A program made the position numbers and the translations under genes. From assembly GCA_951406725.2 (NCBI GenBank), contig OX597833.1:56544001-56608000 (forward strand): DNA of 64,000 nt, written 5' to 3'. The stretch comes from Octopus vulgaris. Taxonomy: Eukaryota. Positions within the stretch are counted from its first letter, which is position 1; the number at the start of each line of letters is the position of its first letter. Under the pieces are notes generated by a model, which worked only from the letters and a program-made list of their open reading frames with translations, searched no databases and had not been told where the DNA came from. Shown here piece after piece: positions 35,101 through 56,345 of this stretch.

Positions 35101-35975
35101 TTTTTGTTGTTGCTGCAATTATATCTTTAAATTGTCTGTGAGAAAACTAGGTTAATAACATATTTCCGATACAAAATGGAATGGTTTCTGATAGTCTCGT
35201 CACTGAAATGCATTCATAAAGATAAACAGAAGTGATAAAACTAAAGAACTTTTGCAGATAACCATTAATGAACTATTTGGTCAATACTATAATTTTCTTT
35301 AGGTTTTGATGGTAGAAATTAAGATAGAAGTAAATCAAGACTTCAAGAGTATATTTCAGGAACCATCACTCTATCCAAAGATATCATCAAACTTTGTACT
35401 GAATTATATATCTAACTTTCTACATTAATCATAAAAATAGTAATGACAAGGATAATTATACTCTGAGATTGGACAGAGATGCTGAGAGTGCATGAATTAC
35501 TAGTAATTTATAACATGGTTTTCCATGGCATTCAAACATCTTATAATGTGTAAAAAGTACGTATGTAATTTGATTGAGTTTCCCAGCTACTTTACAGCAT
35601 TTTAGAATTCAATAAAGTAACACATGAAAATCTTCAATTGATATTACAATAGGTGACTGAGTCAGCAGAGTGCTACACAATAGGCAAGAAGAACATAGGT
35701 CATATATCTTGTCGTTAGCGTTGCAGTGTTCCTAGCTAAGACACTTGATTCTTAAATAACAAAGTCAAGCATTAGAGAAAAGAACAAAAGGAAATTAGTG
35801 AAGGCCTGCTTCAGTAAAAATCAATTCAACAATGTTCAGGAAATTGAATAAGTTTTGGAACCACAAAGAGAAAATAATTCTAATATTTGGGGCACAGTTC
35901 TTCATGGGAGAAGTGAATTGGAAGATATAAAAGAGAATTACTTCTAATGAAAATATATGTGTGTGTGTGTGTGTA

Positions 35976-36282
35976 GGCGCAATGGCCCAGTGGTTAGGGC
36001 AGCGGACTCGCAGTTGTAGGATCGCGGTTTCAATTTCAAGACCAGGCGTTGTGAGTGTTTATTGAGCGAAAACACCTAAAGCACCATGAGGCTCCGGCAG
36101 GGGGTGAGGGCGATCCTCACTGTACTCTTTTGCCACAACTTTCTTTCACTCTTTCTTCTGTCGGCCTGCTCGCTTAGCCAGTGAGGTGGCGTCATTTGAA
36201 GGCTAAAACGATGCAAAGTGCATTGTGACCAACGATGTGGAGCAACATCTGATAGCCTGGTCGGTCACGGTGGTCACGGTGA
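35976..36282 (+). mobile_element. tRNA(Arg-TCG)-like-headed SINE (OR-type), different 3' half from the 12.9-kb copy
   Basis: GGCGCAATGGCCCAGTGGTTAGGGCAGCGGACTCGCAG head; ends in (GGTCACGGT)2. Confidence 0.8.
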
Positions 36283-36344
36283 TATATATACATACATATA
36301 TTTTTTAAACTAATGTATATTGATATACATTTACATGCAGATGC

Positions 36345-36635
36345 ATGGGCCTAATGGTTAGGGTGTTGCACTCGTGATTGTGAGATCATGGTTTCAGTTT
36401 CTAGACTGAGTGATGTGTTGTGTTCTTGAACAAAACACTTCATCTCACATTGCTCTGCAATCACTTTGACACATGACATGTGGTATACCATGCACCTGTT
36501 CAGGCAATGTCGATTTGATTGTGGGAGTGAACTAATGTACAGCACATATATTTGATCACTATAAACAAATCATTTGTGTAGGTTGTTCAGCAAAAGCTGA
36601 ACACTTATACATCATCTTCGATGGGAGAGTCCATG
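36345..36635 (+). mobile_element. Old tRNA-derived CORE-like SINE (relatives on minus at ~29840-29920 and ~63490-63610)
   Basis: TGGGCCTAATGGTTAGGGTGTTGCACTCGTGA head, then TGTTCTTGAACAAAACACTTCATCTCACATTGCTC. Confidence 0.55.
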
Positions 36636-38361
36636 ATGCATTTAATAAAAATTGATAACTTGTCATGAAAACTGCTTAATGTATATATTTACTGTCAATC
36701 AAATTAATTTTGAGATCCATGTTTACAGTTCCTTAGGCCATTATCTTAACAAAGATTTGAACTATCAGAAACTTCTATACTTTAGCACAAAGTTTAAGTC
36801 AGAACATTCCAGATATATAAAATAACTTTGTAATATATATCTTCATGGTATAAACATGGCAAAAATATTAAAACAAATATAGTGTCAGTTGGTGAATAAG
36901 TTTGAATCATATAAGTTGGGTGGATGGTTTATTTACAGAGGGGCTTCAAAACATTGGACTATACTAATAAATTTTCACAATCTTAAGATTACTAATCTAA
37001 TTTTGTTATATCCATTTCTGATGTCTATATATGAAACATAGAAACACTTAACAGTTCTATACCATGTTGATATCGGTTAGCAATTTAGAAGAAATATTAG
37101 GAAAAGATTATGCATATTTTATAAGATATGTCTTAGTTTCAGGATATTTCAAAATATAGGATTTCCTTATCATGGCATGCAGTAACTGTGGGAGGTTTGA
37201 TAGTTGTTTCAAATAACAAAATTGGATTTCAAGAATCGTAAACCAATTCTTAGCACAGTTGAAAGTGATATTTTCTTATACATTATGATGTAAAGAATGT
37301 CTTTCTAACAATTAAAGTTTAACACGGTTGTTTTGTATCATTTCTGACTTGCAATTTCTCTTTAATATTTGATGATGCTACAACACAGAACCATTTTAAA
37401 TTCAATCATAGCATTTGAAAGTGTTTGACAAATACTTTAAATTAAGTTATCTTTAGCAATCATGTAATGTGTTTTTATAATTGTTCCTTGAAATAATTTC
37501 ATGAAAGTGCTTAAAATATAAAATATTTTAAAGTGATTTATTATGATCAATATCTTCGGAACTGTTTATGTAATATTGAGATTAAATTAGATTGTGGAGT
37601 TGCTTCAGAAATAAAGTGAATATTTAACAATTGAATTTCATAATTCTTTGTTCAAATCCCCCAAATTCTGTGGTTTTCATTAAGTTAGTAGCCATAATAT
37701 ACTGTAGTTTAGCAGACTGACTATACCACTTCCTCTTCAAGAAGGCTGTTCAGGCTTCAGTGAACATACAATGAAGCCAAAATAATTACTTTGAAGAAAT
37801 AAAAATATTAATCCATTACATTTGCTTGAACCTCAGACTACTTACAAATGTGTAAGCAAAAATATAATATTGTAATTTGGGTTAATAGTCTAATATTCTT
37901 GTTTCTAACCTTTGTAACATATGTAGTTTATTTTGGAGAAAAAAGCCCAAACACCAAACAAACAATAAACTACTTTATGTGAAACCCAATAATAATCAAT
38001 GTTGTAAAATAGAAAGTTTTCAGTATGTGTTATCCTTATTACTGATATGTTTTCTGTAAACTATAGATTTTTTTCCTTAAATAAATAATAAAAAAAAAAA
38101 GTATTTATTGTTCAATGTTTTATTAAGTGTCTATTTAGAGTGAAAACAGTTATAAATGGAATGTTTTTTCTTGGTGGAGTCATAGTTTGAGATTCATTTA
38201 GACTGTTTTAGACAAAACATGTCTGCCAATCTTTATCTCGCTGTCTCACGTACACGAAACATTTTCTGAAAATCATGCTAACTACAAATAAGTTAATCAA
38301 CATTTTGTTGTCAGAAATCCAATGAAAAATGGCTGGAATAATTATGCATTCTCTAAACCAT

Positions 38362-38584
38362 TTCCTAATATACACATTGTCATCCATCAAATTTCAAATC
38401 CACAAGTAGGTTACATGTCAGCATAATAAAAAAAATGATTCTATATTATAATGACTGAAAAAAAGTAAGAAATATTGATTTACTTAAATACTAAGGGAAC
38501 AAACCGAAATACTTTTTTATTATGCTGACATGTAACCTACTTGTGGATTTGAAATTTGATGGATGACAATGTGTATATTAGGAA
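38362..38584. repeat. Perfect 72-bp inverted repeat with 79-nt spacer
   Basis: 38362-38433 is the exact reverse complement of 38513-38584. Confidence 0.95.
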
Positions 38585-38741
38585 TATTTCTGGGAAGAGG
38601 GTATTTTCAAGTTAAAGGAAAGATGGAGACACATTGTGCAACAAAATGCTTCATATTTGATTGCTTAAAAATGTAATGGCAAGTATTTATTGACCTTTTC
38701 CTTTCCTTTAAAAATCGGCACGAACTTTCCAGACAACCCAA
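38585..38741 (+). mobile_element. mariner transposon 3' end relic
   Basis: FWEEGIFKLKERWRHIVQQNASYLIA* resembles the mariner transposase C-terminus; TIR-like AAAATCGGCACGAACTTTCCAGACAACCCAA|TA. Confidence 0.75.
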
Positions 38742-38768
38742 TATTATTTTTTTATTATTTATTATATT

Positions 38769-38888
38769 AGACCTGATGAGTGACTATATTTTTAAATAGA
38801 ATTAATTTTAGATCGATTTAATTTTAAATCGAATTGATTTTATTATTATTATCTATTTGAAAATATAGTCATGAAACATGTGTAGTCT
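38769..38888 (+). ncRNA. Type I hammerhead ribozyme-like motif (Penelope/retrozyme-type)
   Basis: AGAC-CTGATGA-[20-bp stem II, 38780-38799/38853-38872]-GAAA-C-ATGT-GT-A-GTCT. Stem I AGAC/GTCT; predicted cleavage after A38884. Confidence 0.65.
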
Positions 38889-39012
38889 TTTTACTACTAT
38901 TTACTATTTATTGTACTTTATTGATTTTTAGAATAAGGTTTTTATAGTATATGTTTTCTATATGGTGTGAATAACATCGTTCATTATTGAATTAATAGAG
39001 GATTTTCTCTAA

Positions 39013-39054
<42 letters not shown>

Positions 39055-39134
39055 ATAAATATTAGGGAATAAATCCAAATTTACAGGGGAAAAAATCAGA
39101 TTTAGGATTAAATCCAATTTTATAGTAAAATATT

Positions 39135-39230
39135 ATATAATATTAATTCAAGACAAAACCACTATTATATTATATTTCTTTCCTGGTTTGTTTTGCAAAA
39201 TAGTGGCTTTGTCTCGAATTAATATTATAT
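39135..39230. repeat. 32-bp inverted repeat, possibly Penelope-like terminal-repeat pieces
   Basis: 39135-39166 vs 39199-39230, 2 mismatches. Confidence 0.7.
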
Positions 39231-39333
39231 ATATATATATTTATATATGCATGTATATATACATGTAGATGTCGGTACGTACATATATGTTTGTATGTAT
39301 GCATATATTTTATTTATTACACTATATATATAT

Positions 39334-39442
39334 ATATCACGTTGAAAGCACCGGTTCTCGTATGATCACCGAAGTTAAGCAACGTCGAGCCTAGTCAGTA
39401 CTTAGATGGGTGACTGCTTGGGAAACTTAGGTGCCGTAAGCA
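39334..39442 (+). pseudogene. 5S rRNA-derived sequence lacking about the first 10 nt
   Basis: ATATCACGTTGAAAGCACCGGTTCTCGT..GATCACCGAAGTTAAGCAACGTCGAGCC..AGTACTTAGATGGGTGACTGCTTGGGAA..GGTGCCGTAAGC matches metazoan 5S. No oligo-T terminator. Confidence 0.9.
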
Positions 39443-39834
39443 TAGCACATTGTTCAGCAGTGGTGCCCCAGCATGGCCACGGCCTTCAGGCTAAAACATT
39501 TTAAGGATTTAAGGATATATATATATATATATACAAATATATAAAAACACTACACTCATTATTATATTAGGAGATAGTAACATATAATAACAGTTTCAAT
39601 AATGAGTACAATTTTAAAAATAAAAAGAAAAGAGCAAATGCCAAGATAAACATTGAAAAAAATGAAAAATACCAACAATAGAAATAACCACTGAACACAA
39701 TATTTGAGCCAATGGTAGAGCCTCTGTACGGTAATTTGACTAGCTAGAAATGGAAGCCAAATCTTCCTTAAATCACATCCTGCCATCATCAGCAGCATCA
39801 CCACCACCATGACCATCACCACCACCACCACCAT

Positions 39835-40070
39835 CATAATTTAACGTCCATTGTCCATGCTAGTGTGGATTGGATGGTTTGACCAGGGCTGGCAAGCCAG
39901 AAGGCTGCACCAGACTCCGGTCTGATTTGACATGGTTTCTATGAGTGGATGCCCTTCCTAACACCAACTACTCTGAGAGTGTAATGGGTGCTTTTATGTG
40001 CCATTGGCATGGGTGTCGTTTGTGTGACACCGGTATCTGCCATGAATGTGATTTTGCTTGGCTTCATGGG
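39835..40070 (-). mobile_element. RTE 3'-UTR fragment
   Basis: TTTAACGTCC..CCATGCTAG..GGATGCCCTTCCTAA core. Confidence 0.75.
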
Positions 40071-41046
40071 TCTAATGGATCACATGAAAATACACATGGC
40101 AAACAGGGAGAGATATAAAAAGGACACATTGCTAATGTAGTCCTGGTTACTCCTGTAGCTGTAAACACCATTAATCATAAATCTGATCAGGGTTGATGGC
40201 TGCAACAAACATCAAACATTACATGTATAGTGAAAACAGTTGGGAAAGAATTCAAGTTAATAGAAAAGACACAGCCCGTGGGTACCCTAAACTGATGGTG
40301 TCCACAGACTGTAACTTATATAAGATACAAGCGATGAAATGTTAACAATGGAAGGCAAAGACTAGAAGAAGCTGGAAAGAAGGAAAATGTAAAGAAGCAG
40401 TAACAAAAGTCAATGGATGTAATGAAAAAAAATGTGTGGAATTTGACATTGTTAGGAGAAATAATCTGATTATATCCTATAAAGGGGTATACAGTAAAAA
40501 TAAGTGTTTTGCTTGTAAAATATGACCACCCTAGTAAACTTTACTTGTCAGCACATATTTTCTTTTCCCAAATCACTAATTTCCTCAGGTTCTACTATTT
40601 CATTTATAGATATCAATTTTACCAATAGATTCTACATGAATGCTGTGTCAAGTTTCATCTTTGAAGACAAATATTTCCTTAATTTTTTCTGCAAACTTCT
40701 CCTTGTGTATGTGTGTGCGAGTGTGTGTGTGAGTGTGTGTGTGCATGCGTGTTCATGTGTGTGTATGTAAAATATTTAGGCACCAACAGACTTTAATGGA
40801 AGACTTGAAATTCTGTATATATTAGTGGTGGTGGTGGTGGTGGCAGCATGATTGTCATTATCATCCCTATTTTTACATTCCCTTTCCCATGCTGGTCAGA
40901 AGGGACTTTAAGGATGTGTTTTACCACCGGCTGCCCTGCCTGATGCCAATCTTTTTAATTGCATCATATGATACACATGTATATGGTGTAACTATCTCAA
41001 AACTGGGATATACAGAAGTTATACATGTGTGTGTGTATTATATATG

Positions 41047-41293
41047 TGGCACATAAAAAACACCATTTGAGCATGGCCATTGCCAGTACTGTCTAACTGG
41101 CTCTCATGCCAGTGGCACATAAAAGCACCCACTACACCCTCGGAGTGGTTGGCGTTAGGAAGGGCATCCAGCTGTAGAAACTTTGCCAGATCAGATTGGA
41201 GCCTGGTGCAGCCATCTGGTTCGCCAGCCCTCAGTCAAATCGTCCAACCCATGCTAGCAAGGAAAGTGGACATTAAACGATGATGATGATGAT
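41047..41293 (+). mobile_element. RTE 3'-UTR fragment with (GAT)n tail
   Basis: Same core as 3090-3523. Confidence 0.85.
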
Positions 41294-41295
41294 AA

Positions 41296-41364
<69 letters not shown>

Positions 41365-41589
41365 ATATAGTGCACAATACAGTATCAATCAGGACTGAAA
41401 TATATTTGGGTGAATTAAATGTTAACACATTTTTTCTATGCTTTTGATGTATGAAGAAAGAGTGGGAGAAGTCTTCTGTATGTGTACGGGTATGAGCAAA
41501 TGCTTGTATTTGATCTTTTGTATTATCATCATTAACATTATTGTCACACATATTTCTCTATGTTTGCATGAGTTGGTTGGCTGGGCCTT

Positions 41590-42075
41590 CCCAGGCACCT
41601 TGTGAGCTTCAGCCTTTTGAAAATAGCTTTCACAACTTCTTCATATGTATTCCTTGGGTCACCGCATTCATAAGATCCTTCCACTTGGCTCACTTGACAC
41701 CCATTTATGCAGCTGTTATTGTCAATATTCAGCACATATTCATTCATACCAGCACAGTCTTCTCTCTTGAACACTATTTTTGATTCCTTCTCAACCTAGT
41801 TTTGTTATAAGCTCATTTTTGCTGTTATTCATGCACACATGAATCACACATCACACATCCAATGGAGCATGTTTAACTCATTTCTTCCCAGCCTTCATAA
41901 ATCCTCTTCATGTATACACATCATACAGTCTGCTCCTCAAATTGGAGTAAGAACCTTGTTTCATACAGGCAGAAATAATAGCACTCTGAACTTTATCCAT
42001 GCCATTATTACTTTGGCTATTATGTCCTTAGAGCAACCCTGTACACTGTTAAATAGGTTTCCTAGGTAACAGCTG
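41590..42075 (-). pseudogene. Old RTE RT relic (C-terminal part)
   Basis: CYLGNLFNSVQGCSKDIIAKVIMAWIKFRVLL...LGRNELNMLHWMC...QVEGSYECGDPRNTYEEVVK aligns by eye to the 4761-5832 protein. Confidence 0.75.
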
Positions 42076-42227
42076 CAAAACTACTTTTGAAGAACCCTCT
42101 TAATATTTAAAAGAATTATTTTGATTGAAACTCTTACTGCTAAGTACTCTTTTGCATAAACTAGTCTATAAATTAAAACTGACCTCAAAAAGACATAAAA
42201 ATCAGTGACAGGCAGGGTCTTCTTGAT

Positions 42228-42476
42228 AATTTTAGTAACTTCGAAGCTGAAATAGAGACATGTTCTTTGTCTATCTCCTTAACTTCTTGGAGATTTTAGG
42301 TATAATCATACTAATGTGTCCATCTGTTCTAATTTAATTAAATTCTATGTGTTTGTGCAGCTGAAGATTGCTCTACATTTTAAATTGATGTAATGATTGC
42401 ATTGTTCAATTAAATGGAGTTGCATGAAACGATCGTACTGCATTACCTCTGGATATCCTTGTTGCTTATTTTGATT
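42228..42476 (+). repeat. ~250-bp direct duplication, partner at 50398-50649
   Basis: Near-identical AATTTTAGTAACTTC...GTTGCTTATTTTGATT at both sites. Confidence 0.9.
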
Positions 42477-42596
42477 ATATATAAATATGTATATATATAC
42501 CAACTCACTTGGTGCTTCTAAGTATATTTATAAAAAAATATTCTCACATTCCAAAAGATATTATTTAGCATAATAAGAGAAGGTATTTGTTGTCAG

Positions 42597-42674
42597 GGGT
42601 TGCTTAGCTTAATTGATACAGGGCACTCAGCTGGAATTTGAGAGGGACAGGGTTTGATTCCCTCTAGTGGCTCG
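42597..42674 (+). tRNA. tRNA-like pseudogene or SINE head (GGA anticodon, short variable loop)
   Basis: Cloverleaf with acceptor GGGTTGCT/AGTGGCTC (several G-U), anticodon arm CTCAG-CTGGAAT-TTGAG, T arm AGGG-TTTGATT-CCCT. T7 run at 42683-42689. Confidence 0.55.
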
Positions 42675-42785
42675 CTAGTCACTTTTTTTCTATCCTCCAA
42701 GGGTATTTAACCGATCCTATTTTGCATTTGAGGTTTACTTCATTTTCTGTAAAATACCAACTCACTCAATGCTTCTAAGTTTATT

Positions 42786-42819
<34 letters not shown>

Positions 42820-42989
42820 TTATGTGTGTGTGCATATACACATGTACTACAATCTATCACAACTGGTTAAATACTGGCCTCTAACAGACAAAGTAAATAT
42901 ACTGGTCTGTGATGAAGTCATATATATATACATACAACAAAAGAATTTGATGCATAAAAATAAAATAAATGTGAATATAGAACTGTATG

Positions 42990-43240
42990 TCTCCACCACT
43001 GAGATCCCACTCTCACTGCACTGCTTGTGTTCCCATTGTATAGCATATGCCGAGCAAAACTACATCCCAAAGTGTACTGGGATTTTCTCCTCTCTATTGT
43101 TAATTACTCCTTTGATATTTGCTATGTTGACCTTTAAGGTCTTTGGAATTCTATATCATTCTTTCAAGCTGAGGACTTTCTCCTCAACTCTTCAACAGAA
43201 TGTACAATGAGAACCAGGTCACCATCCTGTATAAAGTTCT
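42990..43240 (-). pseudogene. Old RTE RT relic (upstream part with PHD remnant)
   Basis: EEKVLSLKE..LKVNIANIKG..QWEHKQCS resembles EEKFQVWKE..LRVNLAKTK..LWTHKRCS. Confidence 0.5.
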
Positions 43241-43736
43241 CATGTTTTCCCATTTCTGAACTCCTCTTTTATTACATTTTTGCAATGAAGTTTTAATACT
43301 ATTTATTCGAGGGAGCTTAATTTCTATAAGTACTACCTAAACTTGTTCTAACACTGAAAATTAAATATCTCTTTCATATACATTCTTAGTTATAGCTTAT
43401 GCCGGTGAGGAAAGATTTAATCCATATTGTTAGTACATATACATACATTTTTATGTGTGCCTTATATAGGAGTTTAATGTAGGGTTTTGGGTAAAGTATA
43501 TATGTTTACATGCTATAACTAAGGAGGACATTTAGATGCTAGATATTTGAAACTGGTATGATACTGAGATAGTGTATCAGTTTCAAAGCTAGAATTAAGT
43601 AGTAAGTACACCCATATCACTTTCTGAAAAGAAGAAAATTTAGATAACTTATGATCAAGAAATAGTGATGAAATGATTGGATAGTGATAACTCCTTCTAA
43701 ATCTGATTAATGTCATCTGTGCATCTAGCATACTTA

Positions 43737-43738
<2 letters not shown>

Positions 43739-43817
<79 letters not shown>
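43739..43817. repeat. (CA)n microsatellite
   Basis: Long CA run. Confidence 0.95.
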
Positions 43818-43818
<1 letters not shown>

Positions 43819-44412
43819 TTTATTTATTGTGCTCCTAATATTATTGGGCATGAAATTGTCTAAGATTTCTGACATACATATCAAACAGTCCACCTCCAAC
43901 CATTCGTTTTATTATATAAATATACGCACACGCATAACAGTATGGTATCGAAATGATTGGTTTGACATGTAGGTAGTATTTAATCAAATATTTAGAAGCA
44001 AAAATAAAAGCTGTATTAGGAAATTACAATACTACTTACTAAAATGTCATAGACACACTTAGCAAAACAAATGTTTTCAAACTAAATTTGTTGTGAAAAG
44101 CTAAGATATAAAAATCAATTATATTCAGATACATATACAGTTAGTACACTGAATTTGGCACACAGAAAAACACAGAGATCAAACACAAACAAGCAATGAA
44201 ATGCGTATTAGTGGTTTAGTTGTTACTTAAAAGCAAGAGTTGAGTAGCTACTTTTAAACAACTAGTTGTATTGTTGAAGGCTTTTCAAGCTGAGATTAAT
44301 ATTTGAAGCAGATTGTTGAAAGATTATGCTTTTGGAAAGAACACTTCAAAAAGCAGTTTGGTAAATAAGGCTGTGAGAGGGCTGGAGCTCAAGCATGGGA
44401 TCACACTTTTAC

Positions 44413-44490
44413 CTTCATTGTCTTGATCTTTTTACGTGTAAGGTGACCTCGTATGCCAGCTTGAATCTTTGTAGCAGCATTCGTTTTCAT
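44413..44490 (-). CDS. Short IQ-motif exon MKTNAATKIQAGIRGHLTRKKIKTMK (reads on to VKV-stop at 44401 if the donor is not used)
   Basis: Hand-translated. Matches IQxxxRGxxxR and closely resembles the GAP-43 IQ ([20 protein letters not shown]). Bounded by ttgcttag acceptor and AAG|gtaaaa donor; 78 bp, phase 0/0. Confidence 0.7.
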
Positions 44491-47400
44491 CTAAGCAATA
44501 TCAGGGTAACGTGAGTACATTTGAGAACAGTTTCATTGTTTTAAAATGACATCTTAAACAATGAATGGCTTTGAAATAATGGGAAATTTGACATAGGAAC
44601 AAAATAAGAAAATGGACAAAGAAAGTATTTCACAATTACAAAAGTTTGAAGTTCATTTTGACAAGCACTAGGACAAAAGAAAGGCAAAATAACAGCCAAA
44701 GGTAAATGTCACTATAGACATAATAATTTATAACTTACACAATTGTATTTCATGAGGTTGATAAGTTAAATGATGTAAAAGAATAAAATATATATACAAA
44801 CTCAATGAAAATATGCAGTGTGTGACAGTCCTCCATTCAAAATGATGAATAGAGGAATAAGTTGTAGTATAGAAGCAAAAAAATTCAAGTGGCAAGTGAA
44901 ATTTTACTGCTACTGGTAGCAGAGATGAGATTGTTGCCATGAGAAACAGAAAATTTATTATAAAACCTTTAAGCCGTAATGGTAAATGGAAATGATTACA
45001 AATAAAATATTTTACAGTAACTGGCTACAAACAAACAATTAAAGAAATTGACATGTGAAATATTGGAATTTTGACCAATGGATCAATGATCTGAAATGAA
45101 ATTTTAAACAATGGAGATTGATTTGCAGTTGTACAAGATTGTTTATGTAGGAACTACAAAGCTATCTCTCTCACAGTTTTGAACTATCTTTACTCTGTTG
45201 ATCTTCAACATCAGAAACTTGTGGAATGACAATACACTGACTGACACTGTGAATCTAACTTAATAGAGTACTGCTATTTATTTTATCAATCCTACAAGGA
45301 TGAAAGGTAAATTCAATCTCAGACAGAAGACTTGGTCCGAATGCTCATATCGGAATGAACTTCAGGTGGTGATGCTAAACAAAGTGATGTGTTGTCTATC
45401 ATCCAGTGTAATGTAATGACATTCCACAAGTTTCTGGTGGAGATGAGAGATCAGATCCTCCATAGTTTCTCCAGCACCCCCCCCCCCTAGTTTGTTCCTT
45501 GCATCACAGCTTCTGTAGAAGGAGCCATTATTCAACCAATGAACAACAATATACCAACATGGAACAACACAATCCAGTGTCAACTTAATAGGTTAATGAA
45601 TTAAATATATTTTTATAATATCCTCCTTCTCCATCAATTTATCGACACTCCACAGGTCGCTTGTATTAAACTATTAGATGTAGGAATATAGTTGTATTAA
45701 AAAAAAAATATTTGAAGCAAGAATCAATACACACGGAAGGAGCATGATGACTTCAATGCTTTCTGAGAGTTAATTTGCCAAGCTGAATGCTATTCAATCT
45801 AAAGTATGTTTCATTTTGTATAATTTTAGAGAGTTTATTTATTAATTTGTTCATATTTTTTTTTCAGTAATCTGTGTTATTTCCGGCGTAGTTTAACTGC
45901 TGTGAATTTTCTCTGCTATTTCCTCCACCTTAGATGTTCACAAAGCTTTTTAATGAAAATTTGCATAACTTACACTCTTACAATATATAGATAGATACTA
46001 GTGAATGCTCAAGGCATTGAACTATTTTGGAAAGAAGAAAAAAAACAAAACAATTGCATTGGAATGGTAATATCTAACAAACAGTAAAACAGCTGCTACA
46101 AAAGGAAGAAACTTATTAAAGTAAAAAAAAAAAAATGAAATAAAGTGTTTATATTATATTTTATTTGTATTAAAAGTTTTATTACATATATTTTATGCAT
46201 GATAGTGATCCTATTAAATATTTCTGTGAGAGTGTATGTAGGAACACATCCTCAGTCTGTGTGTGTGTGTGTGTGTGTGTGTATACACAAACACACAAAA
46301 AGATGAATCAAAGTAATGCAAATAAAAATTGCGTTACTTTTTGACTCACCCTTGTATGTGGATGTATGTATATACAATATATACACACATACATACATGC
46401 ATGTATGATGATAAGCAAGCACGCAAATACACACATGCAATAATTTTCCATAAAATTGTTCTGTCTGCATCTATACGAAAATCTGCATTAAATCTCAATT
46501 ATTATATAAATTAATGTATGCATTTGTTTACACATATACGTGTGTGTGTGTGTGTGCGCAAACACACACATCATTAAATGTCTACATGTATACATATTCA
46601 TACATGAAGACATTTATGTAGATCTATTGATAAATATATAAACTAATGCAAATTGGATGCTCACACTCTTCCAGTATGGCGTATGCATGTTGTGTGAAGA
46701 ATATCGGCACATTGATAATTTAATATTTCTATTCATGTAACTATAGCATTATTTATATGTATCTTAATGTACACCATACATATACACACTTAAATGAAGA
46801 TAGCATCTTTAGAAAATTCAAATCCGAATGGACATATACATCTTTACTTGTGAACATATAATACATGCATATCTACATAAACTCATTACCTAAACAGCTT
46901 TTTATGACTATATACTAACATGTATATATATATTTATAGATATATATATAGAGTGATAAACTGAAAGAGAGAGAGAGGATTAGAGACAGAAAAAGCAGGA
47001 GAGATATCCATAGTTATCTAGGTGTGCCTAATTTCATGCAGAACAAGATTTGTTTCTGCAAGAAATAAGCCAAATAAAAATGAAAATATATTTTACCAAG
47101 GAGTGAAAAACAGCTCTGAAAAATCATTTAAAATATCAATGAGAGCTTCAGTAGAAATAAATAATTAGAATTGTTTCATTCTTGTCAATGCTGTGTCAGT
47201 TAACAGTAATAAACTTTATGTTAATATTACTACTATTATTATTATTTGATAGTAGCACATCTGCTTCCAAGTGTTAGCTTGCTATGACAACATTATAGCA
47301 TCGTGGGAGGATAGACTGAAAAATCTTCCTGTTGTTATTGTTATCTTCAGGTTGTCTTGAAGCTCAAGAGGAGCTGTAAGATTTGATGCAAATAAAAATA

Positions 47401-49369
47401 GTCTGTTAGCAATATCTCATCAGGCTGAGTTCATGACAGTTTCAATTGCCATAAATATATATTCTTTTATTTGTTTCAGTTATTTGACTGTGGCCATGCT
47501 GGAACGCCAAATATATATTTGCTAATTTGTAACTGCAAGTTATAGCCATAGACAATGATATGGAGAGAGATGTCCTCTACTAAATTAATTTACTGTTGAC
47601 ATACCATATGAAGTAAAATCTTTTTGCTGTGACATGCAATTTACTATATTCTATAGAATATTTTATTTCTATTTTGATAAAAAGCATATAACATTAATGC
47701 TTTTTCCAAGAATATTTAGAATCAAAACTAAGTCACGAGCTTGGTTCCCAGTAGCTTACCTTGTTCTCTATGATTCAGCAAATTGCTATATGAGTGTATT
47801 ATAACATCAGAATCTTAGCTTAGGGGAGTAATAGTTGGGTCAGGATATATGTCAGCAGTCATCCAGAATTAGCTAATTTCTGTTGTTGACATGCAGTGAC
47901 GAAATCCTAATGGCAGTATGGTTAAAATGTTCGCTTTACAACCACATAGTTTTAGGTTCAGTCTCACTTCATGACACCTTGGGCATGTGTCTTCTACTGC
48001 AGCCCTCGGACCATCCAATGCATTGGGAGTAAATCTGGTAGATAGAATCTGTACAAAGAACATCATTTGTGTGTAAGTGTGTGTGTGTATGAGGGCTTGT
48101 ATTCTGTGATCGCATGAAAAAAAAATCACTGAGCTATAGCAAGTGTTCTTAGTCAAAATAAAAATCACCTAGTAGCCATGTGTATTCAAAGATTAAAGGA
48201 GCAAAAGTCCCTCACTTGAAATGACATTAAGGATTAGTGGTAGGAAGAACAACTGGCTATAAAACACTGCCTCAGGATTATGTATTCATCTAATGAATGC
48301 TAGCAAGAAATAACAAATATTAAAAAGAATGAACAATAATATATATCATTGTCATCATCATTTTACATATACTTTCTGTGCTAGACTGGTTTGGAAGATA
48401 CATCATGAACTAAAAAACTTTTTAGTTCATTAACAGGCATTTAATGAAGTTCAAAGTAATAGATGTCTATATTAAATCAAAAGGTTAATCCATAGGAAAA
48501 AATTATAGGAAAATAAAAAAAAAACGTCCAGTATATATTAGGACAGTTATTCCTTATCCAGGGTTAAAAACTTGAAGTAAAAGTGATTAAAATAAAAATT
48601 TACTTTATTCGAAAAAAAATATGCTCTAGCCTGCAGCATCATTCTCTAAAATAATATATTCCATACAGCATTCCAAGTTGTATGGGTCTGGTTTAGACAG
48701 ATGGCAATGTTCTACACATGTACACATACAAAGTCACATAAACATACATTGAAACATATACAATTTTTTTGGGTATATAAATTTTACAAGACTACCATTA
48801 TTGTTACAATCATCATTAATATATATTTTTTACAAATGTTGTATTATGCCACTGAACTGACATCACCCCTACCGCTGCCACAGCCACCATCATTATTCCA
48901 TATAATAGTGGTGATAGTACAAAATCAAAATGAATGACAGCATGCCATTCAGTTAGGTTTTCTACCATTATGACCATGAGGTCTAATAATCTTGAATCTG
49001 AACATTTATTCCAATATCTTCATTGTCTGACTCAGTGATAATTGCCTTCCATTGTCAATATTTAGTAATTTTTCATTCAGCAGGTGTCATCCATTTTCAT
49101 CAGGTGTCCATAACAATAACACTCTCACTCCTCCACATGTCCACAAGCATTTTTAATGACTAACCACTTTCTCAGCTGGTTTTTCATACAAGTCAATGTT
49201 AAAAATCCAATGGATCAAACATTTTACACATTACTACATCTGTATTTTCTGCAGACAGAAACATTTATACTTGAAATGAGGAAACAATTTCCTAAACTTC
49301 ATCCACCTCTTCTTACTATACTGCAACACCCAACTATCCTAACTACATTTCACATGTTACTTTCTCCGT

Positions 49370-49992
49370 GCTAGCAGGCTGCAAAGAGCACCATATGAGC
49401 ATGATCATTGACAGAGCAGCTAACCGGCTTCTGTGCCAGTGGCACTTAAAGGGCACAATTCGAGCATGTTCATTACCTATTTCTTTATTACCCACAAGGG
49501 GCTACAATTTGAACTCACAACATAACGCAGACGAAATACCGCTAAGCATTTTGCCCGGTTTGCTAACGTTTCTGCCAGCTTGCCGCCTTATCATTACCAG
49601 CGTCGCTTTACTGGCACTCGTGCCTGTGCTAGTAGGGTGCCAAGAGCACCATCCAAGTGTGATCATTGCCAGAGCAGCCAACTGGCTTCTGTGCCAGTGG
49701 CACGTAAAAGGGCACCATTCGAGCATGATTGTTACCAATGTCGCCTTACTGGCACCTGTGCTGGTGGCATGTATAAAAGGATTCAAGCGAGGTCATTGCC
49801 AGCACCACCTGACATGTAAAAAGCACCCACTACACCCTCGGAGTGATTGGCATTAGGAAAGGCATCCAGCTGTAGAAACTCTGCCAAATCAAGACTGGAG
49901 CCTGGTGCAGCCATCTGGTTTGCCAGCCCTCAGTCAAAATCGTCCAACCCATGCTAGCATGGAAAGCGGACGTTAAACAATGATGATGATGA
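49370..49992 (+). mobile_element. RTE 3'-UTR fragment interrupted by a deleted SINE B (~49477-49588, minus)
   Basis: RTE core and GAT tail; TCATTACC duplicated around the SINE piece. Confidence 0.75.
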
Positions 49993-50765
49993 CTTCTGTA
50001 ATAATTGCCATATCTAATATCTTTGTTACATGTTAATTTCCTAGATATCACATTGCACTTACTGTGTAACTGCTGCTTGCACTGACTGCTCAGTATAGAG
50101 TTTCATGGCAAGACCAATTCTCTAATGGTTTCAATTTTTCTACTCTTAGCTACTAACTAGTGCTGCAGATTTCCTTGCTTTGACTTTTGGTCTTTAGCCT
50201 TTGTACCATTCTTACATTGGAAATATTTTATGTAATTCTTTATGTAATTTAGCAATGGGAACCAATATTCACTCCTCCTCAGCTCATAAGTGCTTTCTCA
50301 AGAACTACATTGATAAGAAAATGGTTGAGAACACAATTTTTCTTCAAATGTCTTTACTCTGGGTGGTATTTTCAAATAACATTCGTTGTATTTCATAAAT
50401 TTTAGTAACTTCTATGCTGAAGTAGAGACAACATGTTCTTTGTCTATCTCCTTAACTTCTTGGAGATTTTAAATATAATTATACTAATGTGTCCATCTGT
50501 TCTAATTTAATTAAATTCTATGTGTTTGTGCAGCTGAAGATTGCTCTGCATTTTAAATTGATGTAATGATTGCATTGTTCAATTAAATGGAGTTGCATGA
50601 AATGATCGAACTGCATTACCTCTGGATATCCTTGTTGCTTATTTTGATTTTAATCACCATACTTTGAAATTGTATGGATAATACCGTACTAAATTCTGGT
50701 GCCTCAACCATATTCATCTGAATCTAAATTTTTGATGAACTCATCTACCATACCCAAAGTATAAG

Positions 50766-50798
<33 letters not shown>

Positions 50799-51869
50799 AT
50801 GTATATATATTTGTCCCTACTCACCATCACTTGGCAATTGATGATGGTGTGTTTATGTCCCTGTAACTTAGCGATTTGGCAAAAAGGAATGATAGAATAA
50901 GTACTAGGCTTACAAAGAATAAGACCTGGCATCAATTTGTTCAACTAGAGGCAGTGCTCCAGCATGGCCATAGTCAAATGACTGAAACCAATAAAAGAAA
51001 ATAAAAGAAAGTTATCATGCTTAACCTGCAACTCCTGGAGGAAGTCATAGGAATGCTCCTGTGAAATACAATATCTTAGGCACCTAAAGATGGTGGAGTC
51101 TATCCTTCATCAGTTTTTTGCTATAGTTCGTTTCTTTAAGAAAGAGAGAGAGAGAGAGGAGGAGGGAATGGGAGAGAGTAAGGGAGAGAAGAACATGTCT
51201 CAGTACTAGACTGGTTCTTTATTTATTGACCCTGAAAAGTTGAAAGGCAAATTTGAACCCAGTAGGATTTGAACTCCGCGCACAAAGGGCCAGAATGAAT
51301 ACCATAAAACACTGTATTCAATGCTTTATCAAATCTACCAGTTCCCAATGCTTGTCATTCTTATCAATGAACGTTTTTGTCAATCTCATTCAATTATTCT
51401 GTGTGGAATTTCAAATGAACTATTATTGCAGTCCGACCTTCATGAAAGGAAAAAATATATTAATACAACCTTGTTTAATTAACACTCTATTGACTTATCT
51501 GGTAAAAAAAAGAAAAGAAGAAAGAAATAATTGATATCAATCAATGCAATAATTTACTTTTCAATGTATAGCATCACCGTTTTCATGCTAGCATTGATAT
51601 GATGCAGTTTGTTAAGTAGTTGCTTCAGATGTTTTTACAGTTGAATGTCCTCCTTACAAATCAGTCAATAGCAAAACTAAGAGTGAAATTATTAATAATA
51701 ACATATAAAAATTATTATTTTTTTAAGCAGGGTCATCTGTGTTGTTCAGAGTCCATAGTGAGGTTTGAACTTATGACCATGTTATCATAATAATTCTTTC
51801 TAACATTGAAGAAAAGACAAGTTAATTAATTACAACAACCCTAGTATGTGACTGGTATTTTATTTTATA

Positions 51870-52318
51870 GGTGTAGGAGTGGCTGTGTGGTAAGTAGCTT
51901 GCTTACCAACCACATGGTTCTGGGTTCAATCTCACTGCGTGGCACTTTGAGCAAGTGCCTTCTACTATAGCCTCGGGCCGACCAAAGCCTTGTGAGTGGA
52001 TTTGGGAGACAGAAACTGAAAGAAGCCTGTCGTATATATGTATATATATATATGTATGTGTGTGTATATGTTTGTGTGTCTGTGTTTGTCCCTCTAACAT
52101 CACTTGACAACCGATGCTGTTGTGTTTACGTCCCCGTAACTTAGCAAAAGAGACCGATAGAATAACTTAGCAAAAGAGACCGATAGAATAACTTAGCAAA
52201 AGAGACCGATAGAATAAGTACTAGGCTTACAAAGAATAAGTCCCGGGGTCGATTTGCTCGACTAAAGGCAGTGCTCCAGCACGGCCACAGTCAAGTGACT
52301 GAAACAAGTGAAAGAGTA
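51870..52318 (+). mobile_element. SINE family A with an internal 26-bp triplication (52137-52214)
   Basis: TAACTTAGCAAAAGAGACCGATAGAA x3. Confidence 0.85.
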
Positions 52319-52692
52319 ACCTCAAAAGGATAAAAATAAGTTGAAATCAGCAGAATCTGAACTCAGAATGTAAACAACCAGAAGAAATGTTGTTAAGCGT
52401 TTTGTCCGACATGCTAATGATTCTGCTAGCTTGCTGCCTCGATAATAATGATAATTATCTATAATATCAGGACAAGGCTACAAATTTAAGGTGGGAGGAA
52501 AGCAGTTGATTATAGTGACCGTGTGCTTGATCAGTACTAATAGAGGGACAGCACCATGGATGTGGTAGAGGAGGAAAAGCTGATTGTATCAATGGAATAT
52601 GTGACTGGTACTTTATTCATCAACCCCTAAAAGATAAAAAGCAAAGATAACCATGGCGACACTTAAATACAGAATGTTTTGAGCCATATAAT

Positions 52693-52743
<51 letters not shown>

Positions 52744-53438
52744 CGTAGGAGTAGCTGTGTGGTAAGTAGCTTGCTTACAAACCACATGGATCTGGGTTCA
52801 TTCCCACTGTGTGGTCGCTTGACAACCAATGCTGGTGTGTTTATGTCCCCGTAATTTAGCGGTTTGGCAAAAGAAGCCGATAGAATAAGTGCTAGGCTTA
52901 CAAAGAATAAGTCCTGGACCCATTTGCTCGACTAAAGGCAGTGCTCCAGTAAGGCCACAGTCAAATGACTGAAACAATTAAGAGAGTAAAAGAGTAAAAC
53001 CTTTCTACAATAGCCACAAGTCTTGAAATTTTGATCGAGGGGGCTTGTTGATCACATCAACCCCAGTGCTGAAATGGTACTTATTTTATTGACCCCAAAA
53101 GTATGAAAGGCAAAGTTGACCTCAGTGGCATTTGAACTCAGAACATAAAGATGGACGAAATACTGCTAAGCATTTTGCCCGGTGTGCTAACGATTCTGCC
53201 AGCTCACCGCCTTAGCAATAATATTAATAGTTTCAAATTCTGGCACAGGGCCAGCAGTTTTTGAGGGGAGGGGAGGAGAGGTCAATTACATGGACCTCAG
53301 CACTTGACTGGTACTTATTTCATTGACCAACCCAAAAAGGATGAAGGGCAGAGTCAATCTGGGCAGAATTTGAACTCAGAATAGAAAGACAGACAAAATG
53401 CCACTAAGCATATTGTTTGCCACACTACCAGTTCTACC
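52744..53438. mobile_element. SINE cluster: internally deleted family A (+, 52744-52997) and two family B copies (-, 53045-53212 and 53280-53438)
   Basis: Homology to other copies in this window. Confidence 0.75.
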
Positions 53439-54700
53439 AAAAAAAAAAAAAAAAAAAACCCATAAGGATTTCATTGTAAGATTGCATAGTTGGAGGTGGG
53501 TGATGTGACCAATATAATTGTTTTCAGCATATCACCACTTGAAGGATGATCCCTAGAAGAAATTGAACTGGAAATGTTTAAATACAGAACTAAATACTGA
53601 ATTTCTATTATTTTTACTACAGTAACTGCAGCTTGAAGGAGGGGAGGAGGTTTGGTAGCAGTAGCATCATACTTCAATAAAGATAGATTATTACAGAGAT
53701 TCATTTAGAATTTTGTGATGGGAAATTTAACCATGACAATAACATTTCTTCAACAACAAAACACAAAGCAATAAAGGAAAGAAGGAAATAATAATGCAAT
53801 AATCTTCTAGATCTCTCTCTATTTTTCTTACAGTTTTTTTTATAGAATTTTAATTGTTTACATTGAAACACTTAATCTTAAAGTAAATTGCATTTTTATT
53901 GTTGTAATTACCATTGTATCTGCAACAGTATTACTAAATAAATACGATAATTTTACAAGTCTTCCGACTACACACAAAATATAACATTCCAGCAAGCCAT
54001 TGAAAGAGCTTCTATGTGATATTCAACATAGAAATAGTAGTCAAATCTTCCTCAAATCACACCTTATAGTCTAAAGAAAAGATACAATATCATCATTTAA
54101 CATCCATTTTTCCATGCTTGTATAGAAAAGTGCTGAGACAGATTTTCTATGGCTGAATGCCCTTCCTGTTGCCAACCCTCACCGGTTTTTCAAAGGGAAT
54201 ATTTTTCTACAGCTAGATAAGATTTTCATGGAAGAATGGAAATGAACAATCCTGTTTGTATAACAATGATTTTCATTTACAACCATCATATGTCTCAACA
54301 AGGGTATACACACACACACACACAAACCACAACACACCACACCACATCATGATGGGCTTCTTTCAGCTTCTGCCTATCAAATCTAATCACAAGGCTTTGG
54401 TTGGCCAGGGACTGTAGTAGAAGATACTTGCCTAAGATGTCATGCAGTTGGACTGAACCCAAGACCATCTGGTTGGCAAGCAAAGCTCCTTGACCACACA
54501 GCCACACCTATGCCTACAGCAAACAAATAATACGGTCTGGAACACATAATGTTTGAAAAAGAAAAAACGAGATGGTTATGGCTGGAATAATGTCCATTAT
54601 CGATCTGCTTGATCAAGTCAAACAAGAACAACTGTAGCAGTAACAACTGCAATTATTACATCAACAACAACTTTCCTAAACCATGTCTTTATTTAGATTT

Positions 54701-55101
54701 CTGTGGCTGTGTGGTAAGTAGCTTGTTTACCAGCCACATGGTTCCAGGTTCAGTCCCACTGCGTGGCACCTTGGGCAAGTGTCTTCTACTATAGCCTCGG
54801 GCCGACCAAAGCCTTGTGAGTGGATTTGGTAGACGGAAACTGAAAGAAGCCCGTCGTATATATGTATATATATATATGCGTGTGTGTGTTTGTGTGTCTG
54901 TGTTTGTCCCCCCAACATTGCTTGACAACCGATGCTGGTGTGTTTACGTCCCCGTCACTTAGTGGTTCGGCAAAAGAGACCGACAGAATAAGTACTGGAC
55001 TTACAAAGAATAAATCCCGGGGTTGATTTGCTCGACTAAAGGCGGTGCTCCAGCATGGCCGCAGTCAAATGACTGAAACAAGTAAAAGAGTAAAAGAGTA
55101 A
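54701..55101 (+). mobile_element. SINE family A (an older inverted partial copy lies at 54340-54516)
   Basis: Near-complete copy with AAAAGAGT tail repeats. Confidence 0.85.
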
Positions 55102-55868
55102 AAGTGTATGACACCCATCTTCCCCTCCCTCCCTCCCTCTTAATTTAAGTATTGCAATTTATTAGCCCTTGCTTTCTTTTTTTTTTTGTTTTTTGGCAAA
55201 TCCATACACCACTCAACTGTCTTCAACTTGCCTCAATACTTTGTGATCTTCAAATGCTGCCTCTGCACTCTTTTCATGTTCATCGGTTATAACAGAATTC
55301 TTTTTTGGCCGTACAACAGTCAAAGGATAAGTAAAATTATAAGGCCATACGATAAAACATGTCTGTACCCTAATTACAAAATACATTCTGTTTGGTTGCA
55401 TTTAAGATAGAGATGACTCATTTCTTGTATAGTGAGTCATTCTATAGCCGGAGAATTCTGGAACTTGGAGAGAAAATGACAATTCAAACTTCCATTTTGG
55501 AGGTGCATCTTAGAAAGATGGAATGGCTATTGTTATATATTTCCCCTCTCCAACTACACAGAGACAGGCATGCAGAAAAAAGATGGCAACATTATTGCAT
55601 CTTGAACTCTTTTTTGATTTGCTGCAATAACATTTGCTTTCGTTCATTGGCTTAGAGACTATTTCTTAGTACTGAGAAAATTATCTTCAGTTCTTCCAGG
55701 CAATATATGTTGCTTATAAGGTTCTTATAAGTTTATGTTTTCAGAGATCATGAGAAAGATTTTCATCAATAAATGTGTTTTTAAGACTGAGCCAGTTATT
55801 TAGAGAGGACGTATATTTTTGGTCTACTTTACAATATTGATCACAAACATTATCTTATGATATGCACA

Positions 55869-55897
<29 letters not shown>

Positions 55898-55899
<2 letters not shown>

Positions 55900-56345
55900 C
55901 ATCATCATCATCATCATCATCGTTTAACATCCGCTTTCCATGCTAGCATGGGTTGGACAATTTGACTGAGGACTGGTGAACCAGATGGCTGCACCAAGCT
56001 CCAGTCTGATCTGGCAGAGTTTCTACAGCTGGATGCCCTTCCTAATGCCAACCACTCCGAGGGTGTAGTGGGTGCTTTTACATGCCACTAGCATGAGGGC
56101 CAATTAGGCGGTACTGGCAACGGCCATGCTCAAATAGTGTTTTTTACAAGCCATGTGTATAGGAGCCTGTCCAGTGGCACTCCGAGGGTGTAGTGGGTGC
56201 TTTTACATGCCACTAGCATGAGGGCCAATTAGGCGGTACTGGCAACGGCCATGCTCAAATAGTGTTTTTTACAAGCCATGTGCATAGGAGCCTGTCCAGT
56301 GGCACTGGCAATGACCTCTCTCGAATGTTTTTCATGTGCCACTGG
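55898..56345 (-). mobile_element. RTE 3'-UTR fragment with 125-bp tandem duplication (56053-56302)
   Basis: (CAT)n tail and core; CACTCCGAGGG unit starts at 56053 and 56178. Confidence 0.85.

What the first reader, a model, noticed from the sequence alone, without database searches (positions are those of the whole stretch)
44401..44534. Hidden GAP-43/neurogranin-like IQ exon 42 kb upstream of the double-IQ ORF, same strand and phase
Seen: minus-strand 44490-44413 encodes MKTNAATKIQAGIRGHLTRKKIKTMK between an AG acceptor and a GT donor, and reads through to VKV-stop. It is absent from the ORF track. Its end (TMKVKV) echoes IQ1 of the 1799 ORF (VMKVKA). Known: the GAP-43 IQ is [20 protein letters not shown], and small IQ-only proteins buffer calmodulin in vertebrate neurons (Drosophila igloo is an invertebrate analogue). 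Inference: a cephalopod calmodulin-buffer gene with very long introns. This exon either splices in frame onto the 2281 exon (K|DEMSQ, giving 3 IQ motifs) or is an alternative last exon (1-IQ versus 2-IQ isoforms).
Basis: partly seen in the sequence, partly recalled or inferred. Interest (0 to 1): 0.8.

Follow-up and report, generated by a model that had tools for sequence, protein, structure and literature searches.

The report
Octopus SPA17 exon; switchable N-terminal anchor
This stretch is a real, spliced internal exon encoding one of seven predicted calmodulin-binding IQ motifs of the octopus SPA17 (sperm/cilia scaffold) gene, not a separate GAP-43 gene, and the same gene has an alternative start, shared with snails and clams, that likely swaps its docking domain for a predicted membrane anchor.

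Summary
The interpretation does not hold. It is exon 5 (IQ2 of 7) of a ~482-kb SPA17/Sp17-type gene with an RIIa docking/dimerization (D/D) domain, and it is already in public models of four cephalopod species. The 2281 exon is itself an internal cassette exon. The VKV-stop ending is minor at best (depth 2.8 against 64-290). GAP-43's Pfam domains and PKC serine are absent. What looks new is a 55-nt alternative first coding exon that replaces the D/D domain with a Gly2/Ser6, polybasic, myristoylation-type N-terminus. The same swap appears in abalone, mussel and clam models. One gene would then give a ciliary, AKAP-docked form and a membrane-tethered multi-IQ calmodulin buffer that works like GAP-43 or igloo. 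That junction rests on gene models, not reads. Tissue and calmodulin binding are untested.

The parts
44413..44490 (-). Exon 5 of the SPA17-type gene: 78 nt, phase 0-0, encodes IQ2 (26 aa). It is a bare IQ with no acidic leader and no PKC serine, 26 residues after IQ1. The other exons (1a, 1b, 1c, 2-4 upstream; 7-11 downstream) lie outside the window; their genome coordinates are in the full report
   Evidence: spliced contigs; present in P0004, P0005, P0009, P0010, P0128, P0130, P0131
44491..44492 (-). Acceptor AG of exon 5
   Evidence: upstream junction from gene models only
44491..64000 (-). In-window part of the 51,953-nt intron between exon 4 (IQ1, G000:C20:56640444-573, outside the window) and exon 5
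44401..44412 (-). Donor GTAAAA; if unspliced it reads VKV-stop (minor or pre-mRNA)
   Evidence: one contig 44259-44417 at depth 2.8; one unspliced contig at depth 6.6 in a run with depth in 27 of 30 bins
2282..44412 (-). 42,131-nt GT-AG intron, filled with repeats
1820..2281 (-). Exon 6: 462 nt, phase 0-0, His-rich, IQ3 and IQ4. Cassette exon, skipped in model P0130
1799..1819 (-).
1..1819 (-). In-window part of the 12,163-nt intron between exon 6 and exon 7 (G000:C20:56533606-656, outside the window)
   Evidence: junction from gene models only

Best explanation
The stretch is exon 5 of the octopus SPA17/Sp17-type gene, spliced in frame onto the exon at 2281, and it encodes the second of seven IQ motifs that likely bind calmodulin. 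Shown: the exon, its downstream junction, its conservation and the exon map of the gene. Inferred mechanism: the protein is a mostly disordered, acidic string of IQ motifs. It holds calmodulin (most likely the Ca2+-free form) and releases or re-tunes it when Ca2+ rises. Exon 5 is in every full model seen, while the phase 0-0 exons 6, 8 and 9 are included or skipped, which sets the number of IQs. The first coding exon likely decides where the string sits. Exon 1a gives the D/D domain, which would dock it with ROPN1L/AKAPs on cilia and sperm flagella. Exon 1c gives a predicted myristoylated, polybasic N-terminus that would tether it to membranes, like GAP-43 or igloo but without their PKC switch.
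For: Junction: 131-nt contigs carry 81 letters on 44412-44492 plus 50 others in 3 of 4 laid runs (depth 64, 290, 93). In the two runs whose loose end is listed (two studies) it equals the reverse complement of window 2251-2280. Gene: P0004 maps exon by exon, in order, on one strand of C20 and has Pfam RIIa (44.5 bits) plus 7 IQs. Its best PDB hits are Sp17, E 1.5e-24 over residues 1-136, against 3.5e-5 for PKA-RII. One strong D/D locus was found in G000. Conservation of exon 5: 26/26, 24/26 and 22/26 against O. bimaculoides, Argonauta and Sepia, the highest of 8 exons compared in all three. Exon 1c: a matrix built from four non-cephalopod N-termini ranks it 1st of 8,960 ATG stretches in 514 kb, z 5.8. 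All three first exons end in phase 1, matching exon 2. In 4 of 4 non-cephalopod species the MG-type and D/D-type models share 276-314 identical residues from exon 2 on. Of 12 fetched proteins that carry the exon-2 motif without a D/D domain, 11 start Met-Gly, and 6 more Met-Gly starts appear among 45 new hits. IQ6 with its acidic leader matches PEP-19, E 4.2e-6. Oyster Sp17 is expressed in male gonad, gills and palps (PMC3348941, passages).
Against: No laid run is on record as RNA, and tissues are coded. The junctions exon 4>5 and exon 1c>2 were not seen in reads and rest on gene models. Those models can be wrong here: the exon 1b>2 splice of four O. sinensis models was not seen, because contigs read straight through that donor in 4 of 4 runs. 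The O. vulgaris models P0129 and P0132 split the gene, and P0132 ends after IQ1 without exon 5. 4 of the 11 Met-Gly proteins are the doubtful exon-1b models. One of four runs (X1) showed only an unspliced contig over the exon. Calmodulin binding, myristoylation and AKAP docking are all untested.
Confidence: 0.8

Rival explanations
1. One reading: a small, dedicated neuronal calmodulin-buffer gene (GAP-43/neurogranin/igloo-like) with 1-3 IQs, made of these two exons.
For: The 26-mer matches the neuromodulin IQ (E 1.1e-4). The short MG-type model P0132 has arthropod neuromodulin/igloo clusters as its nearest Atlas look-alikes (0.87, a lead only).
Against: Four more IQs and a D/D exon lie in order on the same strand and are joined in models of several species. 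Sp17's IQ scores the same as neuromodulin's. No neuromodulin Pfam domain was found. 0 of 7 IQs carry the PKC serine.
Confidence: 0.04
2. Exon 5 also serves as a regulated alternative last exon (VKV-stop), giving a two-IQ short form.
For: One contig at 44259-44417 (depth 2.8) in X3 and an unspliced 44153-44592 contig in X1. AATAAA at 43913.
Against: The spliced form has depth 64-290. X1 has depth in 27 of 30 bins, as pre-mRNA or DNA would give. No fetched cephalopod model ends there. AATAAA is common in this AT-rich DNA.
Confidence: 0.1
3. Ordinary ciliary/sperm SPA17 only: exon 5 is real, but the Met-Gly first exons are rare or artefactual products of annotation and have no function.
For: The exon 1b>2 splice was not seen in 4 of 4 runs. 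The 1c>2 junction is not read-verified. D/D-type models outnumber MG-type ones 80 to 9 among proteins fetched.
Against: Invariant Gly2 and Ser6 plus a basic cluster are joined at the same residue in 5 species of 3 mollusc classes. Exon 1c is recovered blind in the octopus locus. A transcriptome-derived protein (P0147) and an unnamed Logan protein (P0189) have acylation-type starts on the same core.
Confidence: 0.2
4. A pseudogenised duplicate of an IQ exon lying in an intron.
For: It resembles IQ3 (60% identity).
Against: It is spliced in contigs, intact, and the most conserved exon across the cephalopod models compared.
Confidence: 0.01

Closest known systems
SPA17 / Sp17 (R2D2 subgroup of PKA-RII-like D/D proteins; PDB 7MY4, 8J07, 9FQR)
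   Same: N-terminal RII-type D/D domain with the extended 1-75 region, followed by an acidic linker and IQ. These are the best PDB hits. SPA17 is conserved across metazoans (PMC8339350).
   Different: Seven IQs instead of the one in the 147-151-aa solved chains; modular phase 0-0 exons; a ~482-kb locus; and an alternative first exon that removes the D/D domain.
GAP-43 / neuromodulin
   Same: Near-identical IQ core; acidic, low-complexity body; a predicted lipid-anchored N-terminus in the 1c form.
   Different: Gly and Ile where GAP-43 has Ser41 and Phe42, so no PKC release switch (PMC3589724). No Neuromodulin_N or Neuromodulin Pfam match. Many IQs. A myristoyl/polybasic anchor rather than the dual-Cys palmitoyl anchor (the latter is recalled).
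PEP-19/PCP4 and neurogranin (acidic/IQ proteins)
   Same: IQ6 with its acidic leader aligns to PEP-19. In PEP-19 that leader tunes Ca2+ binding to calmodulin (PMC5122967, abstract).
   Different: Exon 5 itself has no acidic leader, and the protein is large and carries many IQs.
Arthropod igloo / 'neuromodulin-like' proteins
   Same: Three to five IQs with the same acidic-leader repeat, and Met-Gly-Cys starts in some of the fetched proteins. Igloo is called the invertebrate GAP43-like gene (PMC6917273).
   Different: 0 of 8 carry the SPA17 exon-2 motif, none is listed with a D/D domain, and 6 of 7 counted have a serine at the PKC position.

Membership tests
SPA17/Sp17 | N-terminal RII-type (R2D2) D/D domain: Gly at the start of helix I, second loop Pro replaced by a hydrophobic residue, YF in helix II | tested here: met
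   Pfam RIIa 48 bits on G000 exon 1a; features read against PMC8339350 section 5
SPA17/Sp17 | Extended D/D region (about residues 1-75) closer to SPA17 than to other D/D proteins | tested here: met
   P0004 1-71 against 7my4_A E 5e-20; PKA-RII 3.5e-5 or weaker. Tested against PDB only
SPA17/Sp17 | IQ motif C-terminal to the D/D domain | tested here: met
   7 IQs; IQ1 aligns with the Sp17 IQ
SPA17/Sp17 | One-to-one orthology (reciprocal best hit, synteny, tree) | tested here: inconclusive
   One strong locus in G000 plus one weaker D/D hit at 45% (3 candidates scored); no reciprocal proteome search or tree was run
SPA17/Sp17 | Dimerizes with ROPN1L, binds AKAPs, sits in cilia and flagella | not testable with these tools
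   Known from PMC8339350; run tissues are coded
GAP-43/neuromodulin | Neuromodulin_N (PF10580) or Neuromodulin (PF06614) domain | tested here: not met
   No match in P0004, P0005, P0128, P0129 or P0132
GAP-43/neuromodulin | PKC serine inside the IQ motif (Ser41; Ser36 in neurogranin) | tested here: not met
   0 of 7 G000 IQs; Gly in exon 5; importance from PMC3589724. O. bimaculoides has Ser there in 2 of its 7 IQs, not in exon 5
GAP-43/neuromodulin | Single IQ in a small stand-alone gene | tested here: not met
GAP-43/neuromodulin | Neuron-specific expression and apo-calmodulin binding | not testable with these tools
   No tissue labels and no binding assay
Neurogranin/PEP-19 acidic-IQ proteins | Acidic leader directly before the IQ | tested here: inconclusive
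   Met for IQ6; absent for the exon-5 IQ
Neurogranin/PEP-19 acidic-IQ proteins | Small (60-80 aa) IQ-only protein | tested here: not met
Arthropod igloo | Shared ancestry marker beyond the IQ repeat (SPA17 exon-2 motif) | tested here: not met
   0 of 8 igloo-type proteins hit by the exon-2 HMM
Arthropod igloo | Synteny or intron-position match | not testable with these tools
   No animal relatives of G000 are held

The most novel reading that the evidence does not exclude
Molluscs, and probably other lophotrochozoans, get their GAP-43/neurogranin-like membrane calmodulin buffer not from a dedicated gene but from SPA17. A first-exon switch conserved across cephalopods, gastropods and bivalves replaces the AKAP-docking domain with a myristoyl/polybasic anchor. 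Cassette IQ exons, alongside this cephalopod-type GAP-43-like one, then tune the buffer in neurons. In the boldest form, such an isoform is the ancestral template of igloo-type small IQ proteins (about 0.1 on its own; one search gave no support).
Probability: 0.3. Interest if true: 0.7.

Novelty: new variant of a known kind. Interest (0 to 1): 0.38.

Why it matters
The exon itself is ordinary and already annotated, though under misleading automatic names (golgin, ASPM-like, triadin-like, IgA1 protease). The gene family is not labelled SPA17 in most of those records. If the first-exon switch is real, it names a testable molluscan counterpart of the vertebrate calmodulin buffers GAP-43, neurogranin and PEP-19, which are central to plasticity models. 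It would also show one gene moving a calmodulin scaffold between cilia and membranes. I found no paper describing it in the searches run, but most subscription papers are outside this library.

Tried and rejected
(1) One search listed no holder on record as RNA, which is no evidence either way. 8 of 24 runs held a share of 0.19; only 2 of them (X7, X10) were laid on exon 5, so the other 6 are not counted. (2) I first took the 835-codon Met-Gly-Cys exon (1b) as the conserved alternative start. I rejected it as the main form: 4 of 4 runs read through its donor at depth 55-344 with no loose end there. Contigs drop rare forms, so a minor splice is not excluded. That test used the second and last read-laying run, before exon 1c was found, so 1c>2 and 4>5 stay untested. 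(3) The igloo-from-SPA17 test with an exon-2 HMM hit 0 of 8. (4) Atlas structure searches gave nothing at TM 0.5 or above. (5) dN/dS was not computed because no relative genomes are held. (6) No calmodulin complex prediction was run: an IQ-calmodulin pair would pass by likeness to solved structures. (7) Poly(A) signals downstream of both read-through stops are uninformative in AT-rich DNA. (8) Earlier findings of this scan: none returned. (9) The Sp17 'three domain' paper is not held, so only its title was seen, in a reference list. No supplements were consulted; the ortholog lists in the PMC8339350 supplement might already show multi-IQ invertebrate SPA17.

Full report
OBSERVATION. On the minus strand, 44490-44413 is an open run of 26 codons between an AG (44492-44491) and a GT (44412-44411); without splicing it continues VKV-stop. 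Pfam IQ scores 32.3 bits against a cut-off of 20.3. A strict IQ pattern occurs 3 times in the window (this exon and the two IQs of the 2281 exon) and 0 times in 200 shuffled windows. The exon at 2281 also begins in phase 0.

THE GENE IS MUCH LARGER THAN THE WINDOW. The window is G000:C20:56544001-56608000. A search of G000 with the exon peptide returned 5 matches, all on C20 minus: itself, the two IQs at 2281, and one IQ exon on each side of the window. The double-IQ ORF led to a 734-aa partial O. bimaculoides model, P0004, which carries Pfam RIIa (44.5 bits) and 7 IQs. Its best PDB matches are three Sp17 chains (E 1.5e-24, 4.8e-23, 5e-20), far ahead of PKA-RII at 3.5e-5. Mapping six cephalopod models, and then P0132, on 514 kb of fetched DNA gives a colinear exon series of roughly 482 kb on C20 minus: 1a 56969681-56969528 (D/D, GC donor); 1b 56809708-56807203; 1c 56751626-56751572; 2 56672472-56672402; 3 56660563-56660511; 4 56640573-56640444 (IQ1); 5 56588490-56588413 (this exon, IQ2); 6 56546281-56545820 (the 2281 exon, IQ3 and IQ4); 7 56533656-56533606; 8 56520409-56520248 (IQ5); 9 56516718-56516113 (IQ6 and IQ7); 10 from 56493935 (long repeat); last exon 56487375-56487304. 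Exons 5-9 are all phase 0-0. Exon 5 is present in 4 of 4 IQ-bearing O. sinensis isoforms fetched, and in the O. bimaculoides, Argonauta and Sepia models; isoform X5 skips exon 6, and others skip 8 or 9. Two O. vulgaris models (P0129, P0132) cover only upstream pieces and do not include exon 5. The organism is an octopus of that group, judged by protein identity. Named relatives with D/D plus many IQs are common among the 120 listed hits (molluscs, an annelid, a nemertean, a holothurian, a copepod), mostly under misleading names; three are named Sp17.

EXPRESSION. One search listed 24 runs, none on record as RNA. Four guessed-RNA runs were laid on 40501-48500. Three of the four (X3, X7, X10) have a 131-nt contig with 81 letters on 44412-44492 and 50 letters elsewhere, at depth 64, 290 and 93. 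For X7 and X10, which come from two studies, the listed loose end is the exact reverse complement of window 2251-2280. X3's loose end is not among the rows shown (185 were omitted). This is the predicted junction across 42,131 nt, and no intronless copy was found in G000. Evidence for read-through is weak: one 159-nt contig at depth 2.8 in X3, and an unspliced contig at depth 6.6 in X1, a run with depth in 27 of 30 bins. Contig depth is a rough measure. The upstream junction was not displayed; all three contigs begin at 44492, which marks an unresolved branch.

CONSERVATION. Exon 5 is 26/26, 24/26 and 22/26 identical to O. bimaculoides, Argonauta and Sepia. That is the highest fraction among 8 exons compared in all three, ahead of the D/D exon at 49/51 and 46/51 (the Sepia model lacks that exon). 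The best ungapped match among other fetched proteins is 17/26, so this IQ copy looks coleoid-specific within the sample.

IS IT GAP-43-LIKE? The 26-mer scores 24.0 bits on the neuromodulin IQ, 23.7 on Sp17's IQ and 20.7 on neurogranin's, so the likeness does not discriminate. It has Gly-Ile where neuromodulin has Ser41-Phe42. Ser41 is the PKC site whose phosphorylation blocks calmodulin binding (PMC3589724, passages). 0 of 7 G000 IQs have that serine. No neuromodulin Pfam domain was found. Membership fails. Functional likeness remains plausible: IQ6 with its acidic leader aligns to PEP-19 (E 4.2e-6), whose acidic sequence tunes Ca2+ binding to calmodulin (PMC5122967, abstract), and most IQs of other molluscan members carry that leader.

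ALTERNATIVE STARTS. Some models replace the D/D exon with a Met-Gly start joined to exon 2. I first followed the 835-codon acidic exon 1b of the O. sinensis models. The reads went against it: in 4 of 4 runs from 4 studies, contigs pass straight through its donor at depth 55-344, with no loose end there. It is mainly a stand-alone nested transcript matching P0129. A third start then appeared, in model P0132: an 18-residue exon, 1c, with a phase-1 GT donor. It aligns with the Met-Gly starts of two Haliotis species, Mytilus trossulus and Ruditapes, with invariant Gly2 and Ser6 and a net charge of +3 to +6 over residues 2-18. A matrix built only from those four ranks exon 1c first of 8,960 open ATG stretches on both strands of the 514 kb (25.7 against 17.0 for the next; z 5.8). 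In each of the four species the Met-Gly and D/D models share 276-314 identical residues from exon 2 onward, so they come from one locus. An exon-2 HMM hit 94 of 249 fetched proteins; of the 12 without D/D, 11 start Met-Gly (4 of them the doubtful 1b models) and one is the truncated Sepia model. One of these, P0147, is a complete ORF from a transcriptome labelled as a gregarine; I infer animal-host carry-over. A profile search of 1.84 billion representatives gave 54 hits, 45 of them new: 10 D/D-type, 6 Met-Gly-type, and 29 others, mostly short ORFs opening in the intron before exon 2. One hit, P0272, has a long acidic Met-Gly start, then a 1c-like segment, then exon 2, the same order as in octopus; its start resembles P0129 weakly (27%, E 8e-4, low complexity). 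That Gly2/Ser6 plus a basic cluster signals N-myristoylation and membrane binding is established knowledge, recalled and not tested here. The 1c>2 junction was not tested in reads.

MECHANISM. Shown: the exon, the 5>6 junction, the gene map and the conservation. From known families: SPA17's D/D domain dimerizes and, with ROPN1L, binds AKAP18 at 82 nM (PMC8339350, abstract, passages and section 5); oyster Sp17 is high in male gonad, gills and palps (PMC3348941, passages); IQ motifs of this class bind calmodulin. Inferred: an acidic, disordered multi-IQ string (Atlas model pLDDT 0.46) stores calmodulin; cassette exons set its capacity; and the first exon sends it either to AKAP-based ciliary and flagellar structures (1a) or to membranes (1c). 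Whether the 1c form is neuronal is unknown. Arthropod igloo-type proteins share the repeat and are the nearest Atlas look-alikes of P0132 (0.87, a lead only), but 0 of 8 carry the exon-2 motif, so descent is unsupported.

LITERATURE. Searches: igloo/GAP-43/Drosophila, 4 papers (passages of PMC6917273 read); Sp17/IQ/calmodulin/AKAP/neuromodulin, 7; SPA17/AKAP/calmodulin/evolution, 6; SPA17/D-D, 5; Sp17/mollusc, 3; GAP-43/octopus, 14; SPA17/myristoyl, 3; PEP-19 set, 22 with 12 listed; Sp17/calmodulin-binding/GAP-43, 0. PMC9110779 was read in passages. Apart from the six papers cited, I saw listings only. None of them describes a D/D-less, acylated SPA17 isoform by title or abstract start; subscription literature and supplements were not seen.

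VERDICT. The remaining interest is the apparently undescribed, mollusc-wide first-exon switch (about 0.75 that it is real; about 0.3 that it makes a neuronal GAP-43-like buffer). Interest 0.38.

Noticed in passing
G000:C20:56807203-56809708 (L027, L073): A nested same-strand 838-aa acidic, low-complexity ORF starting Met-Gly-Cys in intron 1, with no Pfam match. It is covered as a stand-alone transcript at depth 55-344 or more in 4 of 4 runs. A similarly placed long acidic Met-Gly ORF appears in P0272.
   Followed up: partly
G000:C20:56969528: The D/D exon uses a GC donor at the head of an intron of about 297 kb.
   Followed up: no
P0093 residues 673-811; also P0050, P0054, P0057, P0074: SPA17-type models of four Mytilus species carry a C-terminal Pex19 domain (E 1e-16): a fusion or a read-through.
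   Followed up: no
window 2282-2310 and 1799-1819 (-): The intronic flanks of cassette exon 6 are conserved enough to translate alike in the unnamed, Sepia-like records P0002 and P0003, which suggests splice-regulatory elements; a GCATG lies just downstream of the donor.
   Followed up: no
window 44492: Spliced contigs of three runs all start exactly here, implying two different upstream sequences: a second upstream exon, an allele, or intronic reads.
   Followed up: no
G000:C20:56627048-56627104: A 19-codon terminal exon after IQ1 in model P0132, between exons 4 and 5; a possible true short one-IQ membrane form, or a model artefact.
   Followed up: no
window 4761-5942 (-): A non-LTR retrotransposon reverse-transcriptase fragment (RVT_1, E 1.3e-13) in the intron.
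   Followed up: partly
window about 19440-19790: A tandem array with a 24-nt (8-codon) unit, seen in ORF translations.
   Followed up: no
G000:C20:56493935 downward (L029): Exon 10 opens a 556-codon frame with long Ser/Pro-rich tandem repeats.
   Followed up: no
G000:C5:146858362-146858481 (+): A second RII-type D/D exon (45% identity to exon 1a), probably another D/D family member such as ROPN1L.
   Followed up: no
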